This document shows, piece by piece, positions 11,318 to 59,774 of a DNA stretch of 64,000 nt (the first letter of the stretch is position 1; each line of letters begins with the position of its first letter). Position numbers and translations under genes: made by a program. The DNA comes from Azoarcus sp. (lineage in GTDB: Bacteria > Pseudomonadota > Gammaproteobacteria > Burkholderiales > Rhodocyclaceae): assembly GCA_031277415.1 (NCBI GenBank), contig JAITMK010000132.1:3977-67976 (forward strand), given 5' to 3'. The notes beneath the pieces were generated by a model that did not search any database, was not told where the DNA came from, and saw only the letters and a program-made list of their open reading frames with translations.

Positions 11318-11889
11318 CCCGCTCTGTTTCCGCCGTCCCTGTTTCCAGACTCCAGCGCGGCGCGTCGCTGATTATTGCCATGATCCTGCTGCTGGTCATG
11401 TCGCTGGTAGCAGCCGCCTCGTTGCGCAGCACACTCATGCAGGAGCGCATGAGTTCCAACACTTATGACCGCGATCTGGCTTTCCAGTCGGCAGAAGCCG
11501 GACTGAGGATGGGCGAACGTCAGGCAGAAAAAGCCGATCTGACTGCCTTGTCGGGCTGTCAAAGTCCAAAACCTTCAACAGGACTTTACCGGAACACCGA
11601 CCCCGCCTTATGTCCGCAGCCGCTCTGGGAAGGTCCGGCGCCGGGCGCCTCCGGTTCGTACTGGCACGACGCGCAGAACGATGCCGGAAGCGACGACATC
11701 AGTTTCAGCAGCAATAACCTGTCGCTCGCTCCCTATTACATCGTCGAACTTATCTCCGAAAAAGCGCCCTGCCAGATCAACGCCCCCGACTCGGACAGGA
11801 ATTGCAAGCGCTTCCGGGTCACAGCCAGCAGCAGAGCCGCCGAGGGCCGCTCACAGGTCATTCTCCAATCCATCTACGCCACCCAATAA
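11314..11889 (+). CDS. pilX: Type IV minor pilin PilX
   Basis: QRG|ASLII lacking Glu5, LMQERMSSN, AFQSAEAGLR, YYIVE. Confidence 0.9.
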   Translation: MTRSVSAVPVSRLQRGASLIIAMILLLVMSLVAAASLRSTLMQERMSSNTYDRDLAFQSAEAGLRMGERQAEKADLTALSGCQSPKPSTGLYRNTDPALCPQPLWEGPAPGASGSYWHDAQNDAGSDDISFSSNNLSLAPYYIVELISEKAPCQINAPDSDRNCKRFRVTASSRAAEGRSQVILQSIYATQ

Positions 11890-11932
11890 AAACAGGAAGG
11901 CAAGAGCGCCCGACCCCACAGGAAGCCACGCC

Positions 11933-25034: not shown

Positions 25035-25110
<76 letters not shown>

Positions 25111-25122
25111 GGAAAGAACCGC

Positions 25123-25198
25123 GTCCCCATCGTCTAGAGGCCTAGGACACCGCCCTTTCACGGCGATAACCGGGGTTCGAATCCCCGTGGGGACGCCA
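25123..25198 (+). tRNA. tRNA-Glu (TTC); probable prophage attL
   Basis: GTCCCCA/TGGGGAC acceptor, CTTTCAC loop, encoded CCA; C27-A43 mismatch. Confidence 0.95.
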
Positions 25199-26672
25199 CC
25201 TGTACCCCGCTTTTTTGCGGGCTGAAGCGGAAAGTAATTTCCGCCTCAAACGTTGTGGCGTCAAGCGTGATGCCCTCTACCATCTCGCGCAGCATGTCGG
25301 CTAAGCCCTCCGGGGCTGCGCCGCCCATGTCGCCAACAATCCCTTTGAGCATCCGTTTCACGTCCGACGCGCTTATCTCTCTTAGCACACGCGCGTTCGC
25401 GTTTTCACTCTCCATCCCTTCAAGCCTTACCTTGAGCGTTTCTCGCTCATCTTCACAGGCCTCGATCTGGCGAAGTAGCGCATCCGGCGCGCTGGTCTCT
25501 GAGAGCAAATCTACGAGGCGAGTAATTTTCTTGTCGATTTCCGCAATCCTGCGTTTAACGCTCGCGATTTCATCCGTGTTACTGCCTGCCGTTTTCGACA
25601 GCTTGCGGTAGTGCTCTGCAATGGATGAAGCCATTTCATCAGAGCGCATCTGCTCGATGACGCTCTCGACAATCACGCGCTCAATGGTGTCTGCTTGGAT
25701 TCTCGCGCCTTTTCCGATGCGGTACGTCCCGCCGTCTCCACTCCACGCGATACCCTCAGGAGAGACAAGCAGACCCGAAAGCAGATAGACGCGCTTCGCA
25801 GGTTTTCCGCCACTTCGTTTTTTCTGCTCGACCTGCGCCAGTATCGCTTCTGCCTCTTCGTCAGATATCAGCGCATCGTGTGTGTTCCTTTGGATGATCC
25901 ATTCTGCGCGTGGACGGTACTTCTGCCCTCCGACGTATCCATTGCCTGACTTTTCCGCTGTGCGGTTCCAGACAGTATGCCCAGCGTAGGTGAGCGCATT
26001 GCGCTCGATCTCTAGCAAGCTTGTGGTAGGTATGCCCGTACCTGCCAATTCCAAGGCGCGTGAGCGCTTAAATCCGCGCGCTCTGTGCATGAGGTAAGCG
26101 CGAACCTTGACGGCTTCCTCATTCGGCGCCAAGCGCGATTTCGTAACGCGCTGCCCGTCCCTTACTGCGCCGGTTTCTTCGTACTGTAGACGGTATCCTC
26201 GTGGCGCGCGACCGCCTGCCCGCCAGCCTTGTCGGATGTTTTCCGCCATACCTGATAGACCTTTCGCCTTGCTCGTCAGGCTGTGCCATTCGTCCATAGC
26301 TTGCAGGATGGACTTTAGCAGCATTTCCGTGATGGGGTCAGCGTCCGGCAGGCTCTTGTAAATAATCTTGATGCCGCGCCGGGCGCATTCGTGCTCCTCG
26401 AAGATGATGGCGAGTGCACGCCGCCGGGCAATACGTGCTGTATCCAGCACAAGGATATGATCCCATTTTCTGTCGGCTGATCGGATAGCGCGAAGCAGGG
26501 ATTGAAACCCTGGCCTATCGTCGTCCTTACCGCTCTCTACCGCATCAGCGAACTCAGCGACAATTACGATACCGCGCGCGGAAGCAAGTTCTGACAGCGC
26601 ACGCCTCTGCGCGTCTATGGAAACGTCAGAACGATCTTTTGAAGATCGGAGGTAGCTGGCCGCGCGGATCAT
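25158..26672 (-). CDS. Large serine recombinase (integrase)
   Basis: YLRSS catalytic Ser, DTARIAR, GWRAGGRAPRGY, WIIQRNTHDALIS, coiled coil; ends ASPRGFEPRLSP over the tRNA. Confidence 0.93.
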   Translation of the reverse strand: MIRAASYLRSSKDRSDVSIDAQRRALSELASARGIVIVAEFADAVESGKDDDRPGFQSLLRAIRSADRKWDHILVLDTARIARRRALAIIFEEHECARRGIKIIYKSLPDADPITEMLLKSILQAMDEWHSLTSKAKGLSGMAENIRQGWRAGGRAPRGYRLQYEETGAVRDGQRVTKSRLAPNEEAVKVRAYLMHRARGFKRSRALELAGTGIPTTSLLEIERNALTYAGHTVWNRTAEKSGNGYVGGQKYRPRAEWIIQRNTHDALISDEEAEAILAQVEQKKRSGGKPAKRVYLLSGLLVSPEGIAWSGDGGTYRIGKGARIQADTIERVIVESVIEQMRSDEMASSIAEHYRKLSKTAGSNTDEIASVKRRIAEIDKKITRLVDLLSETSAPDALLRQIEACEDERETLKVRLEGMESENANARVLREISASDVKRMLKGIVGDMGGAAPEGLADMLREMVEGITLDATTFEAEITFRFSPQKSGVQVASPRGFEPRLSP

Positions 26673-31165: not shown

Positions 31166-31200
31166 ATTTTGATGAATTAAGAGAAGTCCGTATGAACGTT
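31166..31200 (-). promoter_or_regulatory. Putative late promoter, copy 3 (tail fibre/lysis)
   Basis: AACGTTCATACGG-N16-CAAAAT. Confidence 0.65.
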
Positions 31201-34200
31201 CAGTAACTGTATTCCTGGTACCCGAACACAGGCGCAAGCGGGTTAGACGTATCTCCCTCTATCATCTTCTCTATACCCTTGTACGATCTATTGAACTGCG
31301 TTGAGGGTAGACCAAGGTAAAGGCCAAGAACTTGAACAAATGATCTCCTGAGCGCACTATCTGCTTCGCCTTGCGATACCTGGATAAGGAAATTTCCAGT
31401 GTCGCCAATGACGCGAACACCAGCAGGGCCAGAGTACCCACGTAACCCCGGAACACCTGTAATCTGACGGGTAACGAAAGATAGCTCTCGCACAACCAGA
31501 AGCGTGCCCATCGCGTATTCAAGGTTGGCGTTCAGTATGCCTCTCAAGAATTTTTCAGGATCGTCCCATTCATCACCACCGCCCGGTATGAGCGCATTCA
31601 TCACGATGTAGGTGAGTATCGCCGGTAGGATAATGATTTGCGCAACGTCCTTTGTTAGGGCCGCGTACTCTGCTGGCGTCTCAGCTAGCATGTACTTGGC
31701 TGCCAGAAGGTTGAATGTACTATTGAAGTACGATGTGAACGGAGAAAGTACCCTCATCAAACCTTTTGAGCGATGCCATGCTGATAAATCCTTTATCTGC
31801 CCGCCTGCCTGAGAATCCAGTACCGCCTGTTCTGCCTGTGCAATGGCAGAAACCTCATCAGCACCGTTTGCAAGGGCTTTAGCTTTTGCACCGTAATATG
31901 TCGGCACGTCAACGAAGCGCTGACAGAATGAGATAAACAGGAACGAGTGATTTCTTATGGATGAAATAATCCCAGGCTCGTTGCTGCGTACCGTGTTCAT
32001 GACTTCGTTTATTTCTCGCATCAGTGTGCGTGCGCGGTTTGCCATCAACAGGCTTTCGTTTGCTGCGGCACGCGCTGCATCAATCGGCCCCATTCTCATG
32101 GATTCAGCCACACCATGCACGATCCACCGTGCACCAACCCTGTTGATACTCTGAACAATCCCGGTGAATTGCAGCGCTGAGGTTGTTGCGCTATAGCCCA
32201 TCGCAGCAATACCGACGTTTCGCGGTAGCCATGCACTTACTTCCTCTCCGTACTTCATAGCAAAAGATTCACCGATGGCGACATCTTTTATCCATTCCTG
32301 GAAACGTTTGTACATTTCCGCGCCACGTGTTTCACGCACTGCATTTTTAAATTCATTTGACCGTATCACTCTATTTGCGTTATGGACGGCCTCACGGTGA
32401 GATATGTCATGAATGATTTCATTCACGCCATTGAAGAGCGTTTGAAGACTAAGCAAGATTGGACGGTCAAACACCTCATTCACGCGCGGCTTTGCAAACG
32501 TTCTTCGCGTTGTAGCGGAAGTATAGGACGCTCTTTGTTCAAGTTTTGCTGTGTCTTCTCTTTCCTGCTGCTCTGCCCTGACGCTTGCTTTCGGGTCGTA
32601 CTTAATCGGGTAGTAACCACCGCGCAAGTGGTGTGTATTGCCTTCAGAATCTGTCACCGTGATTGCCTGCGGCTCTACCCATTGCGGCTCTCTCCCAAGC
32701 ATTCTGCGCTCAAGTGCCGCAATCAGCGGACGGTAAGTTTCGATAAAATCCCATATCTTTTGAACGGCTTCGACAGCTACAGGAGGTAGGTTTTTGAACG
32801 CTTCCTGTACATGCTGTGCTGTAAAGCCGTTACCGCCTTCAATGCGCTGCAAGTTTCCTTTATTCCCAGAATTGAGCGCGATGGAAAAAATTTGCTCCAT
32901 AGTGTAGCGCTTACCATTTCCGATGCTGTACTTCGCCGAGGTGATATTTCCTATGGCCTTCTTGACTGGTTTTAATATCTCATCGAGTGATACAAACCCA
33001 TCATGGCTCATCTGCGCTTTAAGATTCCCAGCATCATTTATGGGTTTGAGGAGCAAATCCCACAGCAACCCACCGTCCACGCCGCCGTCCAGTACGCGAA
33101 CATCCGTCGACGCCTTTATCTGACGAGAAAAGAAAATATCTATAGCCTCTTTCTTTTTCCCCCATGGTGTTGCCGGTGTTTCATTTACCCTTTCTTTTCC
33201 ACGATAGTTCTCACGGATATTTGACTGCATCGCGTCGAGCGAATCCAAAAAACGCTCATCACGCTTTCCTATTGCCGTGATCTGACGTACCGCTTCGCCA
33301 ACATCCAGCGCCTCTTCCAGAGTGAGTTTGCCCCACGGCTTTCTTTCGTTTTCGTCCGTTACGATATCGGCTAAATCGAGTTGTGGGCCTTCATTGTTTT
33401 CAAGCTGTTCCAGCCAGTCAGCAAGCGTCGTACCCTCTCTCGGCATTTCACCGGCAATAAACCTGTCAATGATGCGCCAGACCTGCTCAGAGTATCCAGG
33501 AAGGAGGTGGCGCCCGCGCTTGTTGTGGTTGAGAATGTATTTGTACTCACGCTTCGCACGGTTCAGAACCCTGTTCGCCTCATTTGAGAGCATCTGGTTC
33601 AAAACCTTTGTTCTCGTGAATGCCGCCGCCGTTTCAATGTCGCCTGACCTAAGCGCCTTTTCCGCCTCGGTTGCGTTCTTCTGCGCAGTCGCAGAAAAGC
33701 GTTGCGGATTGATATCATCAATCATCATGCGCGCGATAGCGACACGCGCGTATTCACGCGCTGCCGCGTTCATGAACCGCTGGCCGCCATACGCTTTTTC
33801 GAGCGCCGAAAGTTCTGTCTGAGAGAACCGCACCATTGCATCATTGGCTATCGCCTCATCTGCCGCGCGTTCTATCGCCTGCGGGGTCGCAAGCTCGCCG
33901 TGTTGTTCAAGCATCCGCGCGTCTGCAATTTGCGCAATGGCCTGCTCCGGCGGTGTCGCTGCGGCAAGCGCGTCAACGAGTTCAGCGCCGTTGTCGAACC
34001 CGAACATCCCGGCCACGATTTCAGGATGAAGACCGTCTTTCGCGGTCATGCCGCGTTCTCTCAAATTTGCGGAAGATTCTTTCCCAAAATCATCCAGTGC
34101 GCTAATATCCAACCGGCCAGCGCCAAGAGCCTGCGGGTTAGCAACCTGCTCGCCCGCCATTATCTCTTCAAGTATTCCGTATTCGTATGCGCTCGAATAC

Positions 34201-37200
34201 TGTGGCACCCCACGCAATTCATCGAAGAACGCACTCTCGAAGTACGTATTCGAGAAACTTGGATCATCAGGCAGGTAGCCAAGTTCCGTCAGCGCTTCTT
34301 CCATCTTCGAGACGCTCAATCCGCCCTTGTTGCGGATGACGATCTTCCAGCCCTTCGGAAGTGTTGCCTTCTCTTCCGGCTTTAACCCCCACAGGCTTGC
34401 AAGCTCCTCCCGGTTCATACCGCCAAGTTTCGATATAGCCTCGAACAGCGAATCAATCGATTCATCCACCTTACCGCGTGGCGTTGCTTTGCGTTGCTGT
34501 GGCGGTTTACCAATCCTGTCCTGCGGCCTGAGTGGCGCAGTCAGAAATTGCCATGCGCGATAAACGGGCTGACTCATCACCTCGCGCCGAGCATCCATCT
34601 CAGCCTGCGCGCGCGCCTGCGTTGCTTGGCGTTGTAGCCGCTTTATCTCTCGTCCTCTGGCGTAATGCAACCATCGCATGTCGCGCAGTGCCTTTGCCTG
34701 CATTGCGTCAGTTGCAACGCCTACGGCATCAGAGAACTGCTGCAAATATTCGTCGAACTCTTCCGGAGTCATGTTGGCGAGTTCTGCGTTATCAATCAGA
34801 GGCATCGATCCTCGCGCGCGCATCACTCTATTTATTTCCGCCTCAGAAGCAATCATCCGGTCAAACACGGCTCGTACAGCAGGCGTGAGTGTGACGTTAT
34901 GCGCCTTGAGTGACTTGTAGACGGAGCGGATGAAGTTCGACAGCCGACGAAATGCACGCATCAGCGCGGAAGATGGCGCAACACCCTCATGGATGTACCG
35001 CTCAAACCCTCTTGCAAGCTTCTCATGGTGTGGCGTTTGCTCATCAACCGTCATCTGATTCCACGCATCGATGGACGGCACGCCGAACCAGTCGAGCAAT
35101 GCTTGCGTGTCTTCAATGATTCGCCGCTCGCCTGCTGTGATGTCTGCTTCAGGCTTCATCGTGAATTGCTGCGACAAGTCGGCGTAGATGCTCAGGAACA
35201 TATGCCCGAACTCGTGTATTGCTGTGGATGAATCCTGCGTCTGCGTCAGTAAGATGAGGCGTTCTTCAAAACTCGTAAATCCTCGTGGAACGTCTTGCTG
35301 GACTGACTGGTAATAGTTCTCGCCAAGCCGATTGACAAGACGGGCACGAGAGAATACTCTTCTGCTGCCGTGGGAAAACGAGCCAATGGAATTGTCCCAG
35401 TAACTCCCCATCGCCGAGACCGCCCCCGCCCTTGTGGCCGCTGCGGTCTCACTGTTTTCTGGCCTTGACCTATCTCGTACATACACAGGCGATTTAGTAT
35501 TTGCTTTAAGTAATGCGGCAAGCCTTGCTTTAAGCCTATCCCATCCGCTTTCTACTACATCTCCTGCACCATCAGTAACGTTGTGCTGTGGAGTAATTGT
35601 TCTTATCTCTCCGTTACGGATACCAACGATTATTGGCTCGCCGTTCTGCGTCATCGCGTCAATGAGAACGTTCACACCACCTTCCGGTGCCGGATAGGAA
35701 AGCAACGGATCATGAAGGAAATCTGTAAGGTTCGTCACTACTTCTGACGGTATTTCGTGCCCATGATCACGCACAATCTTCTGCCAGTACGTAGGAGAAA
35801 ATGAAATCTCACCGCTTCTTACGCCCATCTCTCTAAGAACAGCAGGTGTTTTCATGCGTACCGTCTTGCCACGGTTTAGGTCGCCAATAGCATTGCGCCA
35901 GCGCGCAATTTCCGCTTCCAGCGTAGCCTGCGCAGCTTGGCTGAACCCTTCTCCTTGAACAATTCCACGAAGAATCCTGTGACCGTACTGCGCGTAGAAC
36001 GCTTCTGTCGTCACGCCTATATTTTGTGCAATCGTGTTGAACATTGACGAAGCCAATAACGCAACGTCAGCCGACTCTTTCGCCGGTCGGCCTGCCGCCT
36101 CAAGCTGCGTTCGGATATCATCCATGATCACGACACGCTGCGCGTCGAGCGCCGCCAATCTCGCATCCTCTGCCATGGCGCGCTCTATCGTCTCTCTCGT
36201 CTCTGTGTCTGCGTCAAACGCCTCACGCTGTGCGGGCGTTGGGATGTCTGGGTTGAACGTGGTGTGGAGTCGTATTTGATCAATTATTGCACTGTTCGGC
36301 GCTACGTTATTCGCAAACTCACGAAGGGATATCTGAACATACCCGTTTTCAGCAATCGGTTCCTGTAGCTGCTGCGCGGCTTCTGGTGAGACTGCTGAAA
36401 GCTGCTCTGATAGACCTTGCTGTGCAAACGCCTCGGATGAAATATAGACGGTTTCTACTTCGCTTTCTCTTCCTACGGCTTCCACAAAATCTGCGTATGC
36501 TTTTGGATCTCTCCTGATAAGATTAATGTCTTTAGAAAGATTAATTAATTGATCTAAAAGTCGTTGATGAAGTTCAGATACCCCTCCAAGAGATTCTTTT
36601 CTCAGCAGGTTGTCGATGCTACTCATGATAGCAACATTGCCTGCACTTCCGACGATGGTTGCTACAAGCGTCTGATAGGCCGCATCCGGGCGTTCTGAAA
36701 GGTACTCTACAAGATGCTGACCAAAGCCTTTTTCAGGGTGTTGAGCAGCCCGTATAAAAACCTGACGATTAAAATCTTGAATGAGCGTGGTTACTTGCTC
36801 TTGCGGCACCTCTTTCAACATAACATTGAATGCTGTTTTTAAGACGCCTGAGCGGTTAGCAATTCCACTTAGCGCAGCCATAAATGGGGCACGCTCTAGC
36901 AATGCTTCAGGAACGCCTTGTGACAGACCGTACAATGCCGCTCTTCCGGGTGAATAGCCCGCTCTTAATCCTTCTCCGTATTCTTCACCTCCTACCATGC
37001 CGCCAAACATTACCAATGGACCCCATGATCCAGCAGAATAAGCAGGAAGCGACATTACAAACTGCGTTATAGATTCAATGCCAGAATAAATAGCAGATTC
37101 AGTTTTTCCAGGATTTCCTATTACGCGCCAATCCGTGCTCTCTGCACGATGTTTCCATGCTTCTTCGCTTCTCTCCCATACCTTGCCCGCTCTACGAAAA

Positions 37201-37745
37201 GAGTCTTTATGTCCCCCAGGAATAAGATTTAACCACGGGTCAAATATCGGCGATAGAACATTTGTCATTGCAGCAGATATCCAACCGCTAAGACCTTCTT
37301 CACCTCTTAAATATCCTCTACCGGAGGCTCTGCCAATATTACGTACAATCTCCTCTAAACCGCCTAGCATTTCAATATCGTCGTGCGCAATGGCTGCAAA
37401 ATTTGGATCTGTCATTCTCCGCTGAAGTTGCGGGTAGTTCCGCATGACACTTCTTACCGCACGCACACGATTATGGTTGACGTAGGCATCCTGGTTTCTT
37501 TCTATAACAGAGACATCTACGCCGTAAATCTTAGCAAGGTTCTGCGCTTCTGCTGCCTTGTCAGGATTGCGCGGCATCGTCCGCTCAAGATACTCCTGAA
37601 ATTGAGCCGCCTGTTGTTCTTGCTCCTGTCTATGTCTTTTTGCGAAATTCTCAAACCATTCATCTTCAGATAAACGTTTATTTACAATAGGACGGCTTGT
37701 TAAGTCTATATTGCCTTGCTCAATAATATTATCTTGGTTTTCCAT
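31200..37745 (-). CDS. Large internal virion (ejection) protein, T7 gp16-position, polyvalent
   Basis: About 2180 aa; HEFGH zincin motif; BECR/MuF-C-like segment; likely ATG 37745 overlapping upstream stop. Confidence 0.75.
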   Translation of the reverse strand: MENQDNIIEQGNIDLTSRPIVNKRLSEDEWFENFAKRHRQEQEQQAAQFQEYLERTMPRNPDKAAEAQNLAKIYGVDVSVIERNQDAYVNHNRVRAVRSVMRNYPQLQRRMTDPNFAAIAHDDIEMLGGLEEIVRNIGRASGRGYLRGEEGLSGWISAAMTNVLSPIFDPWLNLIPGGHKDSFRRAGKVWERSEEAWKHRAESTDWRVIGNPGKTESAIYSGIESITQFVMSLPAYSAGSWGPLVMFGGMVGGEEYGEGLRAGYSPGRAALYGLSQGVPEALLERAPFMAALSGIANRSGVLKTAFNVMLKEVPQEQVTTLIQDFNRQVFIRAAQHPEKGFGQHLVEYLSERPDAAYQTLVATIVGSAGNVAIMSSIDNLLRKESLGGVSELHQRLLDQLINLSKDINLIRRDPKAYADFVEAVGRESEVETVYISSEAFAQQGLSEQLSAVSPEAAQQLQEPIAENGYVQISLREFANNVAPNSAIIDQIRLHTTFNPDIPTPAQREAFDADTETRETIERAMAEDARLAALDAQRVVIMDDIRTQLEAAGRPAKESADVALLASSMFNTIAQNIGVTTEAFYAQYGHRILRGIVQGEGFSQAAQATLEAEIARWRNAIGDLNRGKTVRMKTPAVLREMGVRSGEISFSPTYWQKIVRDHGHEIPSEVVTNLTDFLHDPLLSYPAPEGGVNVLIDAMTQNGEPIIVGIRNGEIRTITPQHNVTDGAGDVVESGWDRLKARLAALLKANTKSPVYVRDRSRPENSETAAATRAGAVSAMGSYWDNSIGSFSHGSRRVFSRARLVNRLGENYYQSVQQDVPRGFTSFEERLILLTQTQDSSTAIHEFGHMFLSIYADLSQQFTMKPEADITAGERRIIEDTQALLDWFGVPSIDAWNQMTVDEQTPHHEKLARGFERYIHEGVAPSSALMRAFRRLSNFIRSVYKSLKAHNVTLTPAVRAVFDRMIASEAEINRVMRARGSMPLIDNAELANMTPEEFDEYLQQFSDAVGVATDAMQAKALRDMRWLHYARGREIKRLQRQATQARAQAEMDARREVMSQPVYRAWQFLTAPLRPQDRIGKPPQQRKATPRGKVDESIDSLFEAISKLGGMNREELASLWGLKPEEKATLPKGWKIVIRNKGGLSVSKMEEALTELGYLPDDPSFSNTYFESAFFDELRGVPQYSSAYEYGILEEIMAGEQVANPQALGAGRLDISALDDFGKESSANLRERGMTAKDGLHPEIVAGMFGFDNGAELVDALAAATPPEQAIAQIADARMLEQHGELATPQAIERAADEAIANDAMVRFSQTELSALEKAYGGQRFMNAAAREYARVAIARMMIDDINPQRFSATAQKNATEAEKALRSGDIETAAAFTRTKVLNQMLSNEANRVLNRAKREYKYILNHNKRGRHLLPGYSEQVWRIIDRFIAGEMPREGTTLADWLEQLENNEGPQLDLADIVTDENERKPWGKLTLEEALDVGEAVRQITAIGKRDERFLDSLDAMQSNIRENYRGKERVNETPATPWGKKKEAIDIFFSRQIKASTDVRVLDGGVDGGLLWDLLLKPINDAGNLKAQMSHDGFVSLDEILKPVKKAIGNITSAKYSIGNGKRYTMEQIFSIALNSGNKGNLQRIEGGNGFTAQHVQEAFKNLPPVAVEAVQKIWDFIETYRPLIAALERRMLGREPQWVEPQAITVTDSEGNTHHLRGGYYPIKYDPKASVRAEQQEREDTAKLEQRASYTSATTRRTFAKPRVNEVFDRPILLSLQTLFNGVNEIIHDISHREAVHNANRVIRSNEFKNAVRETRGAEMYKRFQEWIKDVAIGESFAMKYGEEVSAWLPRNVGIAAMGYSATTSALQFTGIVQSINRVGARWIVHGVAESMRMGPIDAARAAANESLLMANRARTLMREINEVMNTVRSNEPGIISSIRNHSFLFISFCQRFVDVPTYYGAKAKALANGADEVSAIAQAEQAVLDSQAGGQIKDLSAWHRSKGLMRVLSPFTSYFNSTFNLLAAKYMLAETPAEYAALTKDVAQIIILPAILTYIVMNALIPGGGDEWDDPEKFLRGILNANLEYAMGTLLVVRELSFVTRQITGVPGLRGYSGPAGVRVIGDTGNFLIQVSQGEADSALRRSFVQVLGLYLGLPSTQFNRSYKGIEKMIEGDTSNPLAPVFGYQEYSY

Positions 37746-40047
37746 CCCACGGCTCCGGAACTTCATCATCTGAAGGTATTCTGCCAGGTCTTTCTGGCGT
37801 TTTTATTATTGTTGCACTCATAACGTTTTTATGTTTTGTTTTATCAAGATAATCCCTATATTCTTTAGCAATATAACGCATATTTGCATTCGGGTTAATA
37901 CTTTTTATTTTCTCAACAAAGTCAATAGGAATTGAAGAAATGCGCACTTCACGACCATCATCTAGTTTAATATAAAGATTTCCTTGTTCTCCTTCAGATA
38001 TACCCTTATAAAATGAAATTTCATTATCAGGCGAAAATGTATCACGCCTCATTACTTTATCATCAACAATTCTATTTAGAATTTCATCAAGATCTTTTCC
38101 TGTCGCTGTCCGCCCATTAATTGCTTTAAATTCATAAATTTCTTCCTGTACTCTGTACATAAATTCTATGAATTCCGGCTTCTCTTTTTCATTCTTTTCA
38201 GGCTCTTCGTTAAGTATTCCAATCTTTCTTGCAGTTCTAACAACAAGATTAATATGTGACAACAATTCTATACCTTTATTATTATCTTTATTATCATTGT
38301 TATTATCTTTATTATCATTGTTTATAAGATTTGCGCGCAACTTGGTTATTTCATCAAACTTGTTTCCAAGCCTTGATTTCAGGTTCGTCATTTCTGCATC
38401 AGTCAAGCTTCTCACAACATCATGGTTGGTGATGAGATGGACGTAAATTGCAGGATCTGGATCAGTCGGTCCTTTACGTAGCGCCTCTATCTGGCTCTTT
38501 ACTGATGACCTGTCCGTCTCGTGAATAGCCTCCCTGATAGACATGGGTAGTTCGTCGAACTTAAGCCCGGTTTGCTCGGAGTATCGTATCGCTGCTGCTT
38601 TTGCTTCTTCTCGCTCTTGCTTGACAGCATCATTCTGCGCCGTGTGCCGTTCTTTTACGTATTCAATTGCCCGTTTTCGTGCACGAGATGATAGGCCAGA
38701 AGCGTCTATATGCTCGATATATCCTTCAAGCGTTGGTCTTGCTGGCCTACCTCCTCCGCTTCCGAGTAAGCGCATGTTCTTCTCAACGTAGTCTTTCGTT
38801 TGCTTCCTGTTATCAGGCGTTCTATCATCGTTATTAAGCTGCCAGAACCAGTCGGATTCCTGTGTCCCTTGTTCTGCCTTTTTAGCCTTGGATACAGCAG
38901 CGTCAACCCACTTCTCTCCAGCGTTGTACGCTGCCCATGCCTTACCGATATTCCCGCCATACTTATCGACAAGTGCGGCAAGAAGCTCACTGCCTACCCG
39001 GTTATATTCTTCCGGTGTATCGTTTTGCGCTGGCTTTATACCGTGCCCAGGTTTTTTAGCCGTATCCGGCATGACCTGCATTTTGTACATTGCGCCAACT
39101 GGTGATCGCACAGGCTGACCACCTTCAATAAAATCCCTGTTACCGCTTTCTGACTGAGCGGTAATATTAAGCACCCTATCAAAATCGTTAGGTTTATACG
39201 CTTTCTCTCTATCTGAAATAAGAGTACTACCGAAAGCAATTCCTTTTTCATCCTCAACGAAATTAGATAAGGTGATATTATCCTTTATCTTATGCTGATG
39301 CTCCATGCCGCCATTGAACTGGTTGAAGTACGCAACCGCTCCGACCAAGTCGCCTTCATCTATCATCGCATTCAGGTTGTTCGAGTGCGCAGCAGAGACA
39401 ACGCCCTTCGCCTTCCTTCTCGCCTCGTCAATGTGCATCCCTGTGATAGACGAAAACCGCTCCGCCTCTTCAATGGCGCGTCGAGAGGCAGTTTCGACCG
39501 CTTCCGGGTCATTCCTCAACGCGATGATCTCGTCCGCAGCCTGCGCGATAATCGCCTGAGAGGCGCTTGCTTTCCACTTCTGCGCCTCGTTGTGCTCATG
39601 GCGCATCGCGCCCTCTTTGAAGCGCAAGAGTTCTTTTTGCTTGAACGCCTCGAAATACGCTCGCTGTCTGTCGTTTCCGAGCCCTCTTGAAACCTCAGCA
39701 CTGAATTCATCAAGGCGCTTCGTGTATTCATCAGAGAGTGCCTTACCCTCTTTTGGCAGCGCTGCTGCACCTTGCAGTGCGCCATATCCGTCCTGGCCTA
39801 ACTGCAATTCTATGGCCTTTTGCCGCACCTCTCGCGCTGCGTCATCCAAGCGCAGATTGTCCATTTCGTCACGGCGCTCATTTTCAATCTTGAAGAGCGC
39901 ACGCCCTGCATCGGTCATCACGCCCGCAAGCTGTGCATGTTGTGCAGATGGGTCTACGGACGGTACAGCAGCATGAAACCGGTTAGCTGTAGGTTGATTC
40001 AGCCCGACTGACGGCGCGTTATCGTTATAGGTGGGTACAGTTGGCAT
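37729..40047 (-). CDS. Internal virion protein with lytic transglycosylase (SLT) domain
   Basis: MPTVPTY start typical of this family; AQSES, MQVMPDTA, AYNAGE SLT motifs. Confidence 0.8.
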   Translation of the reverse strand: MPTVPTYNDNAPSVGLNQPTANRFHAAVPSVDPSAQHAQLAGVMTDAGRALFKIENERRDEMDNLRLDDAAREVRQKAIELQLGQDGYGALQGAAALPKEGKALSDEYTKRLDEFSAEVSRGLGNDRQRAYFEAFKQKELLRFKEGAMRHEHNEAQKWKASASQAIIAQAADEIIALRNDPEAVETASRRAIEEAERFSSITGMHIDEARRKAKGVVSAAHSNNLNAMIDEGDLVGAVAYFNQFNGGMEHQHKIKDNITLSNFVEDEKGIAFGSTLISDREKAYKPNDFDRVLNITAQSESGNRDFIEGGQPVRSPVGAMYKMQVMPDTAKKPGHGIKPAQNDTPEEYNRVGSELLAALVDKYGGNIGKAWAAYNAGEKWVDAAVSKAKKAEQGTQESDWFWQLNNDDRTPDNRKQTKDYVEKNMRLLGSGGGRPARPTLEGYIEHIDASGLSSRARKRAIEYVKERHTAQNDAVKQEREEAKAAAIRYSEQTGLKFDELPMSIREAIHETDRSSVKSQIEALRKGPTDPDPAIYVHLITNHDVVRSLTDAEMTNLKSRLGNKFDEITKLRANLINNDNKDNNNDNKDNNKGIELLSHINLVVRTARKIGILNEEPEKNEKEKPEFIEFMYRVQEEIYEFKAINGRTATGKDLDEILNRIVDDKVMRRDTFSPDNEISFYKGISEGEQGNLYIKLDDGREVRISSIPIDFVEKIKSINPNANMRYIAKEYRDYLDKTKHKNVMSATIIKTPERPGRIPSDDEVPEPWDGKPR

Positions 40048-56454: not shown

Positions 56455-56527
56455 CCGGGCCGAGCGCATCTCTACAAAGTTCGATCCAGTTGTCATGCAT
56501 GATCTCGCGCAGCTCGTCAGCTTTCAT
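56273..56527 (-). CDS. Hypothetical protein coupled to cro
   Basis: GGAG RBS inside cro 3' end; overlaps opposite-strand ORF by 182 nt. Confidence 0.4.
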   Translation of the reverse strand: MKADELREIMHDNWIELCRDALGPVIPLPPVASISEECRYIERALLRLQKLPHLTPGRLDALLPEVVGFFQERIRVLFCRGESL

Positions 56528-56708
56528 TCGACGGCTCCTCCTTCTTCTGCTCCGGGAACAGGTCGGGGCGGGAAACTCTCACCGCAAGCGGTATTCCTCT
56601 TCTCATCCAGTTGCCGCATCGCTGCACGCCATGCGGCTTCGGATAGCCGAGCTTCTCAGCAAGTGCTGTCGGCCCACCATGCCAACGAATAATTTCTTTA
56701 TCGTTCAT
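56517..56708 (-). CDS. cro: Cro-like repressor
   Basis: IIRWHGGPTALAEKLG...VQRCGNWMRRGIP HTH; divergent from cI. Confidence 0.85.
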   Translation of the reverse strand: MNDKEIIRWHGGPTALAEKLGYPKPHGVQRCGNWMRRGIPLAVRVSRPDLFPEQKKEEPSNES

Positions 56709-56714
56709 GACGAC

Positions 56715-56782
56715 ACTAAACACTATGTTTAATTAAAAGTCAACTCCGTGTGTATCAGCAACATGTTTATATTCCCTATGAT
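56715..56782. promoter_or_regulatory. OR region: pR, pRM and three 15-bp operators
   Basis: Operators TAAACACTATGTTTA (56717-56731), TCAACTCCGTGTGTA (56740-56754), TCAGCAACATGTTTA (56755-56769); pR TTGACT-N17-TTTAGT (minus); pRM -10 TATGAT 56777-56782. Confidence 0.8.
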
Positions 56783-56788
56783 TCAGCT

Positions 56789-57448
56789 ATGCACGAAACA
56801 ATGAAACGCCTCTATACAGCAGCAAAAGAACTCAAAGCCATCTCCGGGCAGACTGAGGTTGCAAAGCTGCTTGGTGAATCTCCACAAACGGTAAATAATT
56901 GGGAGAAGCGCGGAGTCTCAACACAAGGAAGGTTGAACGCTCAAGCAATTATTGGTTGTGATGCGCTGTGGATAAAAACAGGCAAAGGCGTAATGAGTAT
57001 TTATACTCGGCGTGATGGTGTTTCCAGATTTGATGTCCTGGACGCTCGCGCATCCTGCGGTCCGGGCGCAGTCAATGCGGACTACCCCGTTGTCGTCCAA
57101 TCAATCGAGATGCCAAAGGAAATCGCCAGACAGTTGATCGGGCGCACAGATGACGCCGTGCGGATCATCCGCGCCACGCACGACAGCATGGTTCCAACGA
57201 TCAACCCGGACGACCTGCTGTTCATCGACACCACCGTCACAGAGTTCCAGGCGGAAGGTATCTATCTCGTATTGCACGGTAGGGAACTTGTCTGCAAGAG
57301 ACTATCTATCATCGGGAAGAGGCTCAAGGTTACGTCAGACAACAAATTCTACGAATCATGGCTTTGGGATGAAAGGCTAGAAGACGACCGCATCGTTGGG
57401 AAAGTTCTTCGCGCTCTACCGATGGACTTCAAAAATTTTGGGGGGTGA
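56789..57448 (+). CDS. cI: CI-like repressor with S24 peptidase domain
   Basis: QTEVAKLLGESPQTVNNWEKRG HTH; DSMVPT (Ser) and CKRL (Lys) autocleavage residues; CGPG cleavage-loop region. Confidence 0.93.
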   Translation: MHETMKRLYTAAKELKAISGQTEVAKLLGESPQTVNNWEKRGVSTQGRLNAQAIIGCDALWIKTGKGVMSIYTRRDGVSRFDVLDARASCGPGAVNADYPVVVQSIEMPKEIARQLIGRTDDAVRIIRATHDSMVPTINPDDLLFIDTTVTEFQAEGIYLVLHGRELVCKRLSIIGKRLKVTSDNKFYESWLWDERLEDDRIVGKVLRALPMDFKNFGG

Positions 57449-57452
57449 TGCT

Positions 57453-58391
57453 GTGAGGAGCGAGCAAGAAATAGCATATGATTCTCGCAGATATTTCAAT
57501 ATGGTGGATACTTATATTGAAGAAGCAGGACACTTGCAGATGTTTCTCGATCTACGCGGAAGCGATACAGACTACCTTGGGTCTGTAGGCGTTTTGTGTG
57601 TAACAGGGTTTTCATGTGGCATACCAGAGGAAGAAATTGCAGAAATTATATTAGAATCTATTACAAAATATAATAATCAAGGCGCTGATTCCGCTATTGA
57701 GTTTTTAAGTGAATCAGAGATAATAATACATTCAAAGAATGAAGATACAAATAAAGCACAAAAAAATAAACAGTCAAACATGGATCAAAAAAAAATAACA
57801 GATAAAATAGAAGAAAAAACGCAAGAAGAAATTAATAAATATAAGAGATCTGACGGGCTTTTTGACTGGTATATGGTTTTTGATATTAAAAATACAGCAA
57901 CACAGAAACAAATAAGAGAAGCCTTTATTAAACTTCGCTCTGAATTATCTGGAGTAACTGAGACGGATAATATACAAAAAGCAGTCCGCTATTCTTTGTT
58001 GCTAGCCGGTATTAAACAAATAGGCGATAAGGAGAAAAGAGAAAAGTACGATAGATTTTGTCGTTACACGTATGGCCGCGCACAACTTCTCACAGCCCTT
58101 GAGACAACGAGACAAAATATTGAAATGGAGAAAATGCCGGACATATCTTTTATTAATAAAGCAGACACACGCTTAAAACGCATTTCACTTATAGCATTTC
58201 CTTTCTTCGTTGTAGCTACATTATTCAGGTTTTCAAAAGATATGGGTTATAGATGGGATATTGACGATGTTTCTCTAACTACAGCACTGCTAATAATGGC
58301 ATCAGTATTATGCCTACTGATCGCTTTCACACGCATTTCTGACTGGATAAACGGCGATAAACCACCACCCTCACCCGCCGACGAACGGTAG
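57453..58391 (+). CDS. J-domain-like protein lacking HPD, two C-terminal TM helices
   Basis: WYMVFDIKNTATQKQIREAFIKL...IGDKEKREKYDRF; AT-rich; GTG 4 nt after cI stop. Confidence 0.65.
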   Translation: MRSEQEIAYDSRRYFNMVDTYIEEAGHLQMFLDLRGSDTDYLGSVGVLCVTGFSCGIPEEEIAEIILESITKYNNQGADSAIEFLSESEIIIHSKNEDTNKAQKNKQSNMDQKKITDKIEEKTQEEINKYKRSDGLFDWYMVFDIKNTATQKQIREAFIKLRSELSGVTETDNIQKAVRYSLLLAGIKQIGDKEKREKYDRFCRYTYGRAQLLTALETTRQNIEMEKMPDISFINKADTRLKRISLIAFPFFVVATLFRFSKDMGYRWDIDDVSLTTALLIMASVLCLLIAFTRISDWINGDKPPPSPADER

Positions 58392-59276
58392 CCTGATCTG
58401 GCGCATGGCCTGCTTGTGGTCGATGACTTGCTCGACGGTGTATTCTGTCCTTACGCCTTCACGGGTCTGCCACTGCTGCATCCTTACCTGACAAACAAGA
58501 ACGTCACCTTTTGAGAACGCTTCCATGTTTTGGTCTACACGGGAAAGGAATTCAGTATCTATGATACGAGCCTGAATTGTTGCGTTCCCATCATACAACC
58601 TCCATTTATTATCTTCTTTAAAAGCGAGGGAAATTATTGAAAAACTCATCCTGCGAGATTCATCTATTATTAAATCTTCACCAACAGGAGGAGTTTCAAA
58701 AAACACAGCGTCGCACGATTCTACCTGCTCAGAAAAACTCAAGTCATCACCAAAAGCAACGCGGTCAATACCATCCCGGTTAATTGGTGAAATAACAGCA
58801 GCAAGGTTTTCACGTACAGATCTGTCTGTCAGAAGAGTATAAACATGGCGCTCAGTTTCAATAAATTCATCATCTTCTAAATAAATAATGACCCCGTTTT
58901 CATTTTCAGATATAGATTTTATCTTTCTGTTTTTGAGTTTTTTCAAAACACCTACAAGACCGCGTCCAGCGCCAAAAATAATAGCTATCAACGCAGTCGC
59001 GTTTATTGTTGCTTGCGCACCCTTCCCCGTAAGAAGATCGGAGACCTGATTCACAAAGTCTTGCGACAAGATTAGGTCAATACCAAACGACCCCGTTTTG
59101 AATGAAGCCTTGACTTCTGTTCTAGCTCTTACCTTGTTTCCATTCAGGGCGTTGCTTGCAGCGGCCATCATATCGCCCACAGCAAGGAGTGCCGGGGCAA
59201 GCTCTCGCACATCCATTGTGTGCGCATCAAGCGCACTGCCGCAGTAGGTTACGCGGAATGCGGCTGATGAACTCAT
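58371..59276 (-). CDS. Conserved prophage hypothetical protein
   Basis: YCGSALDAHTMDVRELAPALLA...FKTGSF...KWRL...F.KGDVL pattern; upstream TGGTAGGAT extended -10. Confidence 0.75.
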   Translation of the reverse strand: MSSSAAFRVTYCGSALDAHTMDVRELAPALLAVGDMMAAASNALNGNKVRARTEVKASFKTGSFGIDLILSQDFVNQVSDLLTGKGAQATINATALIAIIFGAGRGLVGVLKKLKNRKIKSISENENGVIIYLEDDEFIETERHVYTLLTDRSVRENLAAVISPINRDGIDRVAFGDDLSFSEQVESCDAVFFETPPVGEDLIIDESRRMSFSIISLAFKEDNKWRLYDGNATIQARIIDTEFLSRVDQNMEAFSKGDVLVCQVRMQQWQTREGVRTEYTVEQVIDHKQAMRQIRLPFVGG

Positions 59277-59389: not shown

Positions 59390-59683
59390 CTAGACTACGG
59401 CAATCGTCTTGATGCCGTATCGAACACAAGCCTCGAACTCCATCCAACAGTCACGCGAATCTCGCCAGCCGTCCATGAAGTACACAGCATCTGCCTGCGC
59501 AATGATCTGAAATGATTTACCAAGGCAATCAAGCGCACGGTTGCCTGTAGGCGTCTCGTCTGTGACGTAGCTATCAATGATCTCGTAACCCAGTTCGGTG
59601 ATCAACGATACGACTTCTGCTCGATTGGACTCTATCTGTTCGCGTGTCAGCCCTTTCATGGGCTGAGAAATCATGATTTTCAT
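59390..59683 (-). CDS. DUF4406-like (nucleoside deoxyribosyltransferase-like fold) protein
   Basis: KIMISQPMKG, ADAVYFMDGW..S..C..E motifs; GGAGG RBS. Confidence 0.7.
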   Translation of the reverse strand: MKIMISQPMKGLTREQIESNRAEVVSLITELGYEIIDSYVTDETPTGNRALDCLGKSFQIIAQADAVYFMDGWRDSRDCWMEFEACVRYGIKTIAVV

Positions 59684-59734: not shown

Positions 59735-59774
59735 TAAACATGATGTTGACTAAAACTTAAACATAGTGTTTAAT
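59735..59774 (+). promoter_or_regulatory. OL/pL
   Basis: TAAACATGATGTTGA (59735-59749) and TAAACATAGTGTTTA (59758-59772; exact reverse complement of the 56717 operator); TTGACT-N17-TTTAAT. Confidence 0.85.

What the first reader, a model, noticed from the sequence alone, without database searches (positions are those of the whole stretch)
57453..58391. J-domain-like membrane protein with the HPD motif replaced
Seen: the segment at about 57864-58060 aligns by eye with J-domain helices I-II (WYMVFDIKNTATQKQIREAFIKL) and III-IV (IGDKEKREKYDRF), but the HPD position reads SGV. Two TM helices follow. Established: HPD is essential for stimulating DnaK, and lambdoid replication and some capsid assembly depend on DnaK/DnaJ. 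Inference: a dominant-negative or sensing pseudo-J protein that could block or detect chaperone-dependent superinfecting phages.
Basis: partly seen in the sequence, partly recalled or inferred. Interest (0 to 1): 0.65.

Follow-up and report, generated by a model that had tools for sequence, protein, structure and literature searches.

The report
Prophage membrane protein with pseudo-J domain
A prophage carries, right behind its repressor gene, a membrane-anchored protein whose middle part is a true J-domain fold that has lost the motif needed to switch on the DnaK chaperone; it belongs to a small uncharacterised family that probably protects the lysogen at the membrane, but its function is untested.

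Summary
ORF 57453-58391 (+) encodes a 312-aa protein. Residues 135-203 are a genuine J-domain homologue: the family profile hits solved J domains at E 4e-13, and the AlphaFold model matches J domains at TM 0.6-0.83. S166-G167-V168 sits exactly where HPD should be. Two hydrophobic helices follow.

The DnaK-centred interpretation is not supported. None of 13 relatives keeps the essential Asp. The basic helix-II face that contacts DnaK is mostly lost across the family. The best-conserved part is the C-terminal two-helix membrane module, which also occurs with unrelated N-terminal domains or almost none.

That module sits directly downstream of a CI-type repressor, opposite a cro-like gene, in seven independent temperate elements including this one. 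Here the gene is an AT-rich insert (36.5% GC against 53.8%) inside the immunity region. That region is bounded by mirrored operator sets, and the gene converges on an untested defence candidate (PDC-S42).

The J-like domain is under strong purifying selection (dN/dS about 0.06), so it is exapted, not decaying.

Most likely it is a lysogen-expressed inner-membrane protection factor of the superinfection-exclusion type (about 45%). It is a new variant of known kinds and moderately interesting.

The parts
57453..58391 (+). ORF for the pseudo-J membrane protein: 312 aa from GTG 57453, or 296 aa from ATG 57501. GC is 36.5% and GC3 29.7%, against 53.8% for the window.
57489..57716 (+). N-terminal helical domain (residues 13-88) of unknown function. 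It is absent from all other J-like family members. Its only detectable relative is P0018, a 228-aa protein in which a second, unaligned stretch looks by eye like another copy.
   Evidence: no PDB or Pfam relative; not related to the other N-domain type of the family
57738..57854 (+). K/E/Q-rich linker helix (residues 96-134, 23% GC). Its last part (119-134, 'ETQxxINxYKRxDG') is a family-conserved helix preceding the J fold.
57855..58061 (+). J-like domain (residues 135-203), helices I-IV.
57948..57956 (+). S166-G167-V168 at the position of the HPD motif.
   Evidence: mapping on E. coli DnaJ H33-P34-D35
58143..58358 (+). Conserved C-terminal membrane module (residues 231-302): basic 'ADTRxKR' stretch, helix 1, short acidic/aromatic loop, helix 2, 'T(R/K)xxDW'.
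   Evidence: no Pfam, PADLOC or PDB family
58179..58244 (+). First hydrophobic helix (about residues 243-264). It is short and below the standard hydropathy threshold.
58275..58343 (+). Second hydrophobic helix (about residues 275-297), a clear transmembrane span.
56750..57448 (+). CI-type repressor (HTH plus Peptidase_S24). Its stop codon lies 4 nt before the GTG of the pseudo-J gene. The true start is probably ATG 56789 or 56801.
56517..56723 (-). Cro-like DNA-binding protein, divergent from the repressor.
56717..56769 (.). OR-like operator pair (TAAACAnnnTGTTTA at 56717-56731 and 56755-56769).
   Evidence: (I1, I4, D10)
59735..59772 (.). OL-like operator pair (59735-59749 and 59758-59772), a mirror image of the OR region. 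It marks the far border of the immunity region.
58371..59276 (-). Convergent neighbour: PDC-S42 (untested PADLOC defence candidate), also matching NCBIfam LAPAL_fam and phrog_3243. Its 3' end overlaps the pseudo-J ORF by 21 nt.
59390..59683 (-). DUF4406 / nucleoside 2-deoxyribosyltransferase-like gene, the third accessory gene inside the immunity region.

Best explanation
This is a real gene carried as an AT-rich accessory insert (moron) in the immunity region of an epsilon15-like temperate phage integrated in a termite-gut proteobacterium.

The protein has four parts:
- an orphan N-terminal helical domain;
- a long charged helix;
- a type IV (HPD-less) J-like domain;
- a conserved C-terminal two-helix membrane module.

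Shown: the gene lies 4 nt behind the CI repressor on the same strand, between the OR and OL operator sets. Seven independent temperate elements keep a gene with the same membrane module in exactly that slot. The J-like domain is under purifying selection but has lost HPD and most of the DnaK-contacting surface.

Inferred: the gene is co-transcribed with the repressor and so is made in the lysogen. The protein sits in the inner membrane with the J-like part in the cytoplasm. It protects the lysogen against incoming phage at the membrane. A constitutive superinfection-exclusion block of genome entry is more likely than a suicidal pore. The membrane module is the working core. The interchangeable N-terminal domains, here the pseudo-J, act as a scaffold, adaptor or specificity element that does not activate DnaK.
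For: Anatomy:
- J homology and fold.
- HPD replaced by SGV, and loss of helix-II basic residues across the family.
- dN/dS about 0.06 in the J region in two unsaturated pairs.
- The membrane module is conserved at 31-54% identity to the window's copy in 23 aligned relatives, behind J-like, other cytoplasmic, extra-TM, signal-peptide-bearing or nearly absent N-terminal regions.

Context:
- The window gene follows the repressor by 4 nt.
- Mirrored operators at 56717-56769 and 59735-59772 enclose the repressor, this gene, PDC-S42 and DUF4406.
- The same cro-like <- | -> repressor -> module-gene layout occurs in L003/L004, L009, L011, L016, L021/L022 and L023.
- The six upstream proteins scanned all match phrog_4 repressors. 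The three compared with the window's repressor share only 29-35% local identity with it.
- Another member is a reverse-strand moron among epsilon15-like structural genes, and one lies near a terminase gene.
- Low GC marks the gene as an acquired insert.

For exclusion rather than a pore:
- Stand-alone 78-116 aa versions exist that have no regulatory domain yet sit in the repressor operon. An ungated pore would be toxic there.
- Two relatives carry a fragment of LPD22. The same domain heads the 2188-aa giant protein encoded among this prophage's virion genes.
Against: - No functional data exist for any member.
- There is no homology to any PADLOC, PHROG or Pfam defence or exclusion family.
- About six of the fifteen contexts examined are chromosomal or unclear, not obviously prophage.
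- Expression could not be checked, because only DNA metagenome runs hold the sequence.
- The promoter and terminator scans were no better than shuffles.
- The adjacency to PDC-S42 is weak evidence, since PDC systems are themselves untested.
- Strong purifying selection on the J-like domain means it does something specific that this explanation leaves vague.
- HPD-less J-like proteins can still recruit Hsp70 in rare cases, such as ICP22.
Confidence: 0.45

Rival explanations
1. First reader's model. The pseudo-J domain binds DnaK, or a host J protein, non-productively at the membrane. It either starves chaperone-dependent incoming phages (dominant negative) or senses chaperone hijack and triggers the membrane module.
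For: - The fold is a true J domain.
- The window's copy keeps four basic residues on helix II: K152, R155, K160 and R162.
- A pseudo-J/J heterodimer exists in nature (Pam16-Pam18), and an HPD-less viral protein (ICP22) recruits Hsc70.
- A bacterial defence protein, bNACHT25, needs host DnaJ to sense phage (PMC12169576).
- The J-like domain is under strong purifying selection.
Against: - Even conservative HPD changes abolish ATPase stimulation.
- D35 is retained in 0 of 13 family members. K23 and K26 are basic in 0 of 13, and R19 and R27 in 1 of 13 each. The canonical DnaK surface is therefore not what selection preserves.
- The same membrane module occupies the same slot without any J-like domain.
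- A lambdoid-type prophage that crippled DnaK would also handicap its own induction.
Confidence: 0.12
2. Abortive-infection effector. The two-helix module oligomerises into a membrane-depolarising pore (RexB or 2TM-effector style). The N-terminal domains are sensors that hold it closed until infection.
For: - The position is that of rexAB in lambda: downstream of cI and inside the immunity region (lambda layout from established knowledge).
- A variable N-domain joined to a conserved small TM module is the sensor-effector pattern common in defence systems.
- The intramembrane residues are highly conserved (P, F, C, T, D, W), which suggests specific helix packing.
Against: - Versions with no sensor domain (78 aa, P0023) sit in repressor operons, where they would be made constitutively.
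- No PADLOC effector model matches the module. Of ten relatives scanned, only P0035 gave a weak hit to a 1TM effector model, and that hit lies outside the module.
- The first helix is short for a pore-lining span.
Confidence: 0.15
3. Partner of the genetic switch. The protein works with the repressor itself, for example tethering or stabilising it at the membrane or feeding an envelope or stress signal into induction, rather than acting on other phages.
For: Start and stop codons are tightly coupled to the repressor: overlapping or 4 nt apart in four of the seven elements (window, L003, L009, L023), and 12-92 nt apart in L016 and L021/22. The repressors are diverse, both S24-type and short HTH-only.
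Against: - Family members also occur far from any repressor: a structural-module moron and chromosomal sites.
- The repressors are too diverse (about 30% identity, two architectures) for a conserved direct contact.
- The S24 repressor here already has the standard RecA-dependent induction route (established knowledge of S24/LexA-type repressors).
Confidence: 0.13
4. Lysogenic-conversion or general membrane-anchor cargo unrelated to phage-phage conflict. The module is only a membrane anchor that places assorted domains at the envelope to alter host physiology.
For: - N-terminal domains are very heterogeneous, on either side of the membrane.
- Several members are in chromosomal contexts.
- Prophage morons often serve host fitness (established knowledge, e.g. 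lambda bor/lom).
Against: A mere anchor would not keep about 50% identity, an invariant K-R pair and a conserved periplasmic loop across such different proteins. Minimal versions consist of the module alone.
Confidence: 0.1

Closest known systems
Type IV J-domain proteins / pseudo-JDPs (e.g. mitochondrial Pam16/Tim16, human DNAJB13)
   Same: A recognisable four-helix J fold with the HPD motif non-conservatively replaced. It is maintained by selection. Like Pam16, it is held at a membrane.
   Different: This one is bacterial and prophage-encoded, with a C-terminal two-helix anchor. No partner J protein or Hsp70 gene is nearby. No sequence relationship to Pam16 was found beyond the generic J profile.
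Membrane-anchored bacterial J proteins DjlA, DjlB, DjlC of E. coli
   Same: A J-type domain in the cytoplasm tethered to the inner membrane. The DjlB/DjlC architecture of an N-terminal J domain and C-terminal anchor is recalled from the literature and was not tested here.
   Different: Those proteins keep HPD or HPE and work with DnaK or HscC. Here the position reads SGV, helix II has lost most basic residues, and no Hsp70 gene is adjacent.
Phage J-domain protein Rki (RB43 and relatives) and other phage class C JDPs
   Same: A phage-borne J-domain protein (137 phage genomes with JDPs). BFVD fold hits are to such proteins.
   Different: Rki has a functional HPD, is soluble, belongs to a lytic phage and acts on DnaK/sigma32. 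This protein lacks HPD, is membrane-anchored and sits in a lysogeny operon.
Prophage superinfection-exclusion membrane proteins (lactococcal Sie2009, P22 SieA, HK97 gp15, T4 Imm)
   Same: Small inner-membrane proteins encoded by morons in or next to the lysogeny module and made in the lysogen. These are the closest functional analogy for the position and architecture seen here (established knowledge; position shown).
   Different: There is no sequence similarity. None of them carries a J-like domain. The exclusion activity here is inferred only.
Lambda RexA/RexB
   Same: The same genomic slot: downstream of cI, within the immunity region, between OR and OL (lambda map from established knowledge).
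   Different: Rex is a two-protein sensor plus four-TM channel. Here there is one protein with two helices, and no homology.

Membership tests
J domain (Pfam PF00226) | Sequence homology to the J-domain profile | tested here: met
   The single sequence is sub-threshold (20.2 bits against a gathering score of 27.8, E 6e-4). The family profile hits solved J domains at E 4e-13 and CbpA/DnaJ proteins at E 1e-9. Most relatives carry a precomputed PF00226 hit.
J domain (Pfam PF00226) | Four-helix J fold with a helix II/III hairpin | tested here: met
   AlphaFold2 model from a family-only alignment, with pLDDT 81-95 per 10-residue block (mostly above 90) in the region. The top ~48 PDB Foldseek hits are all J domains, with target-normalised TM 0.5-0.83 for isolated J-domain chains and rmsd about 2 A. 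BFVD hits are J proteins.
Functional J-domain co-chaperone (classes A-C) | HPD tripeptide in the helix II-III loop | tested here: not met
   S166-G167-V168 aligns with H33-P34-D35. D35 is absent in 13 of 13 family members.
Functional J-domain co-chaperone (classes A-C) | Basic face of helix II that docks on Hsp70 | tested here: not met
   The window keeps K152, R155 and K160, but K23 is E, K26 is I and K31 is E. In the family, K23 and K26 are basic in 0 of 13 and R27 in 1 of 13. Which residues contact DnaK is taken from the published 5NRO complex (established knowledge).
Functional J-domain co-chaperone (classes A-C) | Stimulates the ATPase of a partner Hsp70 | not testable with these tools
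   This needs a biochemical assay.
Type IV / pseudo-JDP | A clearly recognisable J domain whose HPD is non-conservatively replaced (definition as in PMC13254874) | tested here: met
Prophage superinfection-exclusion proteins | Encoded in a temperate phage at a site expressed in the lysogen | tested here: inconclusive
   The position fits: same strand, 4 nt after the repressor, inside the OR-OL interval, and repeated in six other elements. Transcription was not testable because no RNA runs exist.
Prophage superinfection-exclusion proteins | Integral or membrane-associated protein | tested here: met
   By prediction only. There is one strong and one weaker hydrophobic helix, and a basic stretch precedes helix 1.
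Prophage superinfection-exclusion proteins | Blocks genome entry of incoming phage without killing the cell | not testable with these tools
   This needs phage plating and DNA-entry assays.
Known defence systems (PADLOC-DB v2) | Match to a model of a known or candidate defence protein | tested here: not met
   Only noise-level hits for this protein (E 0.01 or worse) and for nine relatives. The neighbour, not this gene, is PDC-S42.
Lambda Rex-type abortive infection | Sensor protein plus multi-span channel protein encoded after cI | tested here: not met
   There is a single protein with two helices between the repressor and the convergent neighbour. No PHROG or Pfam Rex match was found.

The most novel reading that the evidence does not exclude
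The pseudo-J domain is a selected bait or sensor for the host Hsp70 system, or for a phage protein that hijacks it. It is wired to a membrane module made from the repressor operon. This would be a prophage defence that guards the chaperone machinery. It would also be the first function assigned to a bacterial type IV J protein.
Probability: 0.1. Interest if true: 0.8.

Novelty: new variant of a known kind. Interest (0 to 1): 0.5.

Why it matters
Two open points become testable.

First, the 2026 JDP review calls it "enigmatic" whether HPD-less J domains are evolutionary accidents or selected. Here an HPD-less J domain is kept under dN/dS of about 0.06 in a compact, genetically tractable phage gene.

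Second, a conserved two-helix membrane module with no Pfam, PADLOC or PDB relative turns up again and again in the repressor operon of unrelated temperate elements. That slot is the one that gave Rex, Sie and other prophage protection genes. If it is protective, it is a new exclusion or defence family with swappable N-terminal domains. If it is not, it is a new kind of lysogeny-linked membrane factor.

Tried and rejected
- Single-sequence AlphaFold2 gave an unusable model (pLDDT 40). It was replaced by a family alignment.
- The word-indexed protein search with the single protein found only itself. The same search with the membrane-module profile found just 5 proteins.
- Searches found nothing for the J-like family in GTDB species-representative genomes or IMG/VR. 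They also found nothing for the protein or the module in INPHARED phages, PLSDB plasmids or E. coli genomes. The first two locus scans failed because the alignment was too diverse.
- The exact-sequence contig look-up for the window protein returned nothing.
- I tested whether the window's N-terminal domain is the same as the soluble N-domain of relatives such as P0007 and P0011. It is not (hhalign probability 0.1).
- The promoter and terminator consensus scans were no better than shuffled sequence, so no internal promoter or terminator is claimed.
- Identifying the host through exact protein clusters failed. The only information is the 'termite gut metagenome' label and ClpB DNA 70% identical to that of E. 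coli.
- I considered that the gene might be a spurious ORF. This was rejected: it is a 312-codon open frame in 36% GC DNA, with homologues under purifying selection.
- I considered that the J-like domain is a decaying pseudogene remnant. This was rejected by dN/dS.
Full report
**1. What is at the coordinates**

The + strand carries one long open frame ending at 58391. The frame opens at TTG 57396, inside the upstream gene. The realistic starts are GTG 57453 (312 aa), 4 nt after the upstream stop codon, and ATG 57501 (296 aa). Both versions exist in public protein collections. Numbering below is from GTG 57453.

The gene is much more AT-rich than its surroundings. It has 36.5% GC and 29.7% GC3, against 53.8% for the window and 50-56% for neighbouring genes. 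The low-GC block ends near 58350. This is the signature of an acquired insert (moron).

**2. Is the J-domain resemblance real?**

Yes, on sequence, structure and column-level mapping.

*Sequence evidence*
- Alone, the protein matches Pfam DnaJ end to end (profile positions 1-63, residues 138-200). The score is only E 6e-4 and 20.2 bits, under the gathering score of 27.8. NCBIfam DnaJ models give similarly weak hits.
- An exhaustive phmmer search of 1.84 billion representatives found a small family. P0002-P0004 align over residues about 120-300 at E 1e-17 to 5e-33, and P0005-P0006 align over the membrane module.
- A profile of the family then recovered 11 further family clusters beside the window's own protein. 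It also recovered bona fide CbpA/DnaJ proteins at E 1e-9 to 1e-8.
- A 13-member family profile hits solved J domains at E 4e-13 to 1e-8 over helices I-IV. These include E. coli DnaJ and the DnaJ chain of the DnaK-J complex 5NRO.

*Structure evidence*
- AlphaFold2 was run on an alignment holding only family members and module-only relatives, with no canonical J proteins. It gave mean pLDDT 80, and 81-95 per 10-residue block (mostly above 90) in the J region.
- Foldseek against the PDB returned J domains as the top ~48 hits. Target-normalised TM was 0.5-0.83 for isolated J-domain chains, with rmsd about 2 A over 63-69 residues.
- The viral structure library likewise returned J-domain proteins.

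*HPD and the DnaK-contact surface*

| DnaJ position(s) | State in the 13 family members |
|---|---|
| H33 | kept in 3 of 13 |
| P34 | kept in 11 of 13 |
| D35 | kept in 0 of 13 |
| K23, K26 | basic in 0 of 13 |
| R27, R19 | basic in 1 of 13 each (the window's copy) |
| R22 | kept in 10 of 13 |
| Core: Y7, L10, A16, I21, L28, L57, R63, Y66, D67 | kept in 12-13 of 13 |

- The fold is therefore preserved while the canonical Hsp70-docking surface is not. Which residues contact DnaK is taken from the published 5NRO complex.
- According to the 2026 JDP review, even H-to-Q or D-to-N changes abolish ATPase stimulation. Proteins with a recognisable J domain but replaced HPD are called type IV or pseudo-JDPs, and their significance is unresolved.

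*Selection*
- Nei-Gojobori estimates on two pairs of relatives with unsaturated synonymous sites give dN/dS of 0.06 for the J-like region in both pairs. The whole conserved part gives 0.08-0.11.
- The HPD-less domain is therefore maintained by selection. It is not a decaying remnant.

**3. The rest of the protein**

- **Residues 13-88** form a helical domain. Its only detectable relative is P0018, a 228-aa metagenomic protein. A second, unaligned stretch of P0018 looks by eye like another copy of the domain. No other J-like family member has this domain. It has no Pfam or PDB relative.
- **Residues 96-134** are a K/E/Q-rich helix encoded by 23% GC DNA. Its last 16 residues are conserved across the family as a helix preceding the J fold.
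- **Helix IV** continues as a long conserved helix ('ARLLxAxE..RQ') toward the membrane.
- **Residues 231-302** are the best-conserved part. The consensus reads 'ADTRxKRIALxAFPFFxV..LFR..xDLDxYxWEPSLSFxLFxMASxLCLLIAFTxLGDW'.
- **Hydropathy** shows one unambiguous span at about 275-297. A shorter apolar helix at about 243-260 stays under the usual threshold. AlphaFold predicts helices 240-264 and 275-292.
- **Topology** is inferred. The basic stretch before helix 1 and the acidic loop fit an N-in, hairpin, C-in arrangement. Relatives that carry a signal peptide, an extra span and then the same basic stretch fit it too. This puts the J-like domain in the cytoplasm.
- **The tail** 'GDKPPPSPADER' is unique to the window's protein. 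It is encoded by the higher-GC DNA that overlaps the 3' end of the convergent neighbour by 21 nt. The insert appears to borrow its stop codon from flanking DNA.

**4. The membrane module is the family's core**

Most of the 36 significant phmmer hits share only residues about 231-302. In front of the module they carry one of several things:
- a J-like domain;
- a different soluble domain ('...RW...W...LDxAL...THSK...');
- one or two extra hydrophobic helices;
- a signal peptide plus an extracytoplasmic domain, with a Pfam LPD22 fragment in P0017;
- almost nothing (P0023, 78 aa).

The module has no Pfam, PADLOC or PDB relative.

**5. Genomic context in the window**

- *Host.* The window holds a proteobacterial chromosome segment with ClpB, a PilY1-domain protein, tRNA-Ala and tRNA-Glu.
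- *Prophage.* From about 25.1 kb there is a prophage. It has a serine recombinase at 25158-26672, an epsilon15-type major capsid protein and portal, an SLT-domain protein and a 2188-aa LPD22-bearing giant protein. Its early genes include DUF1376 and RecT. The sequence comes from a termite-gut metagenome.
- *Genetic switch.* Around the target lie a Cro-like gene (56517-56723, minus strand; phrog_8008) and a divergent CI-type HTH+S24 repressor (56750-57448).
- *Operators.* A palindromic operator, TAAACAnnnTGTTTA, occurs twice between cro and the repressor (56717-56731 and 56755-56769). It occurs twice again at 59735-59772. The two regions are 39-nt inverted copies of each other.
- *Immunity region.* The interval between these OR-like and OL-like sites holds four genes: the repressor and the pseudo-J gene on the + strand, and PDC-S42 and DUF4406 on the - strand.
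- *Comparison with lambda.* This is the lambda layout OR-cI-rexA-rexB-OL (established knowledge), with the pseudo-J gene in the rex position.
- *The neighbour.* The PDC-S42 match is strong (E 7.6e-100). PDC systems are, however, untested guilt-by-embedding candidates. NCBIfam names the same family a 'putative phage structural protein'. In phages A2 and vB_LmoS_188 its relatives lie between the lysin and integrase genes, a typical moron site.

**6. Context of relatives**

Fifteen distinct family or module proteins could be placed on contigs.

| Context | Loci (protein) |
|---|---|
| Directly downstream of a phage repressor, same strand, with a small cro-like gene divergent upstream | window; L003/L004 (P0037); L009 (P0042); L011 (P0011, non-J N-domain); L016 (P0031); L021/L022 (P0033); L023 (P0023) |
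| Reverse-strand moron between portal and capsid-region genes of epsilon15-like phages | L012-L015 (P0032) |
| Next to a small terminase gene | L024 (P0008) |
| Chromosomal or uninformative | L001/2, L005-8, L010, L017, L018, L020 |

- In the first group, the start overlaps or closely follows the repressor stop in the window, L003, L009 and L023.
- The six upstream proteins in that group all match phrog_4 'transcriptional repressor'.
- Those repressors include both S24-type and short HTH-only forms. The three compared with the window's repressor share only 29-35% local identity with it. The linkage is therefore not inherited from a single phage lineage.
- The family is rare. No member was found in 185,579 species-representative genomes. 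IMG/VR yielded only the module-bearing L011, and nothing with the J-like family profile. Nothing was found in isolated phages or plasmids.

**7. How it most likely works**

*Shown*
- A J fold without HPD, kept under purifying selection.
- A conserved membrane module.
- Placement in the repressor operon inside the immunity region.
- Recurrence of that placement across unrelated switches.

*Inferred*
- The gene is transcribed with the repressor in the lysogen.
- The protein inserts in the inner membrane.
- It protects against superinfection.

I favour a constitutive, non-lethal block at the membrane (superinfection exclusion) over a suicidal pore, for two reasons. First, domain-less minimal versions sit in constitutively expressed repressor operons. 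Second, two relatives display a fragment of LPD22 on the predicted outer face. LPD22 is the domain that heads this prophage's own giant protein, which is encoded among the virion genes. That is what a mimic interfering with ejection proteins would look like. This second point is a lead, not a result. The pairwise similarities are short (19 residues at 53% identity, pairwise E 5e-5; pairwise E 0.01).

In this picture the pseudo-J domain is a cytoplasmic scaffold or adaptor. Its selected surface is not the DnaK-docking one, and what it binds is unknown.

I put about 0.45 on the protection reading. The rest is spread over an abortive-infection pore, a DnaK- or J-protein-directed role, a switch-associated role and non-defence conversion.

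**8.

A dominant-negative or sensing pseudo-J remains possible but is not favoured.

*For it*
- Precedents exist: Pam16 binds the Pam18 J domain, HPD-less ICP22 recruits Hsc70, and designed HPD-less J analogues can work.
- bNACHT25 needs DnaJ to sense phage.
- The window's own copy keeps four basic residues on helix II.

*Against it*
- The family as a whole does not conserve the DnaK interface.
- The module functions in the same slot without a J-like domain.

**9. Comparison with known systems, and novelty**

- *As a J protein.* It meets the definition of a type IV or pseudo-JDP and fails the tests for a functional co-chaperone.
- *As a prophage gene.* It behaves like the Sie/Rex class of immunity-region morons but shares no sequence with any of them.
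- *What is new.* The combination appears undescribed. The literature searches returned only Rki-type functional phage JDPs and found no paper on a prophage J-like membrane protein. Nor is there a description of the membrane module and its habitual place behind phage repressors.
- *Rating.* I rate it a new variant of known kinds, with moderate interest. It rises to high interest if the chaperone-guard reading or a new exclusion mechanism is confirmed.

Noticed in passing
window 56717-56769 and 59735-59772: There are two operator pairs (TAAACAnnnTGTTTA), and the regions are 39-nt inverted copies of each other. They bracket a four-gene immunity region. The mirror symmetry suggests that a PRM-like promoter at OL drives the minus-strand genes DUF4406 and PDC-S42 in the lysogen. 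A sigma-70-like site lies at 59749-59720 on the minus strand.
   Followed up: partly
window 58371-59276 (-): The convergent neighbour matches PADLOC candidate PDC-S42 (E 7.6e-100), phrog_3243 and NCBIfam 'LAPAL motif-containing putative phage structural protein'. The two annotations conflict. In phages A2 and vB_LmoS_188 its relatives lie between lysin and integrase, which fits a lysogeny-linked moron better than a structural protein.
   Followed up: partly
window 31200-37769 (-); relatives P0017, P0026: The prophage's 2188-aa giant protein starts with an LPD22 domain (E 3.9e-19). Two membrane-module relatives with signal peptides carry an LPD22 fragment. For P0017 the Pfam score of 32.6 bits exceeds the cut-off of 28.6. 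For P0026, 10 of 19 residues are identical to the giant protein's 'PQLQRRMTDPNFAAIAHDD'. This may be mimicry of an ejected protein.
   Followed up: partly
window 58350-58391: The pseudo-J ORF and PDC-S42 overlap tail to tail by 21 nt. The Pro-rich C-terminal tail (GDKPPPSPADER) is absent from all relatives and is encoded by the higher-GC flanking DNA, as if the AT-rich insert reads through to a borrowed stop codon.
   Followed up: partly
window 59390-59683 (-): A DUF4406 / nucleoside 2-deoxyribosyltransferase-like gene (phrog_355) lies inside the immunity region, next to the OL-like operators.
   Followed up: no
window 57489-57716; protein P0018: The N-terminal domain of the target has a single detectable relative in 1.84 billion representatives. 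That relative is a 228-aa protein in which a second, unaligned stretch looks by eye like another copy of the domain. Its function is unknown.
   Followed up: partly
window 25035-26672: tRNA-Ala(GGC) and tRNA-Glu(TTC) are immediately followed by a 503-aa serine recombinase on the minus strand. This is probably the prophage integrase and left junction. The ORF as listed overlaps the tRNA-Glu gene.
   Followed up: no
window 6935-10045 (-) and 11681-16423 (+): The host segment encodes ClpB and a 1580-aa PilY1-domain protein. The ClpB ORF as listed is 1036 aa, with the model match starting at residue 148, so the listed start is probably too early. The proximity of a chaperone gene to the pseudo-J prophage looks coincidental.
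   Followed up: no
L005 71-4269: In one metagenomic context the J-like family member P0041 follows a 460-aa unknown protein and a 726-aa protein with weak Peptidase_M50/HlyD-like hits on the same strand. This is a different and unexplained association.
   Followed up: no
L003 200-3881; L011 1679-5716: Two module-bearing elements have a D5-type primase/helicase next to the cro/repressor switch. L011 also has a DNA methyltransferase-like ORF (by eye). These look like small satellite- or P4-like integrative elements rather than full phages.
   Followed up: no
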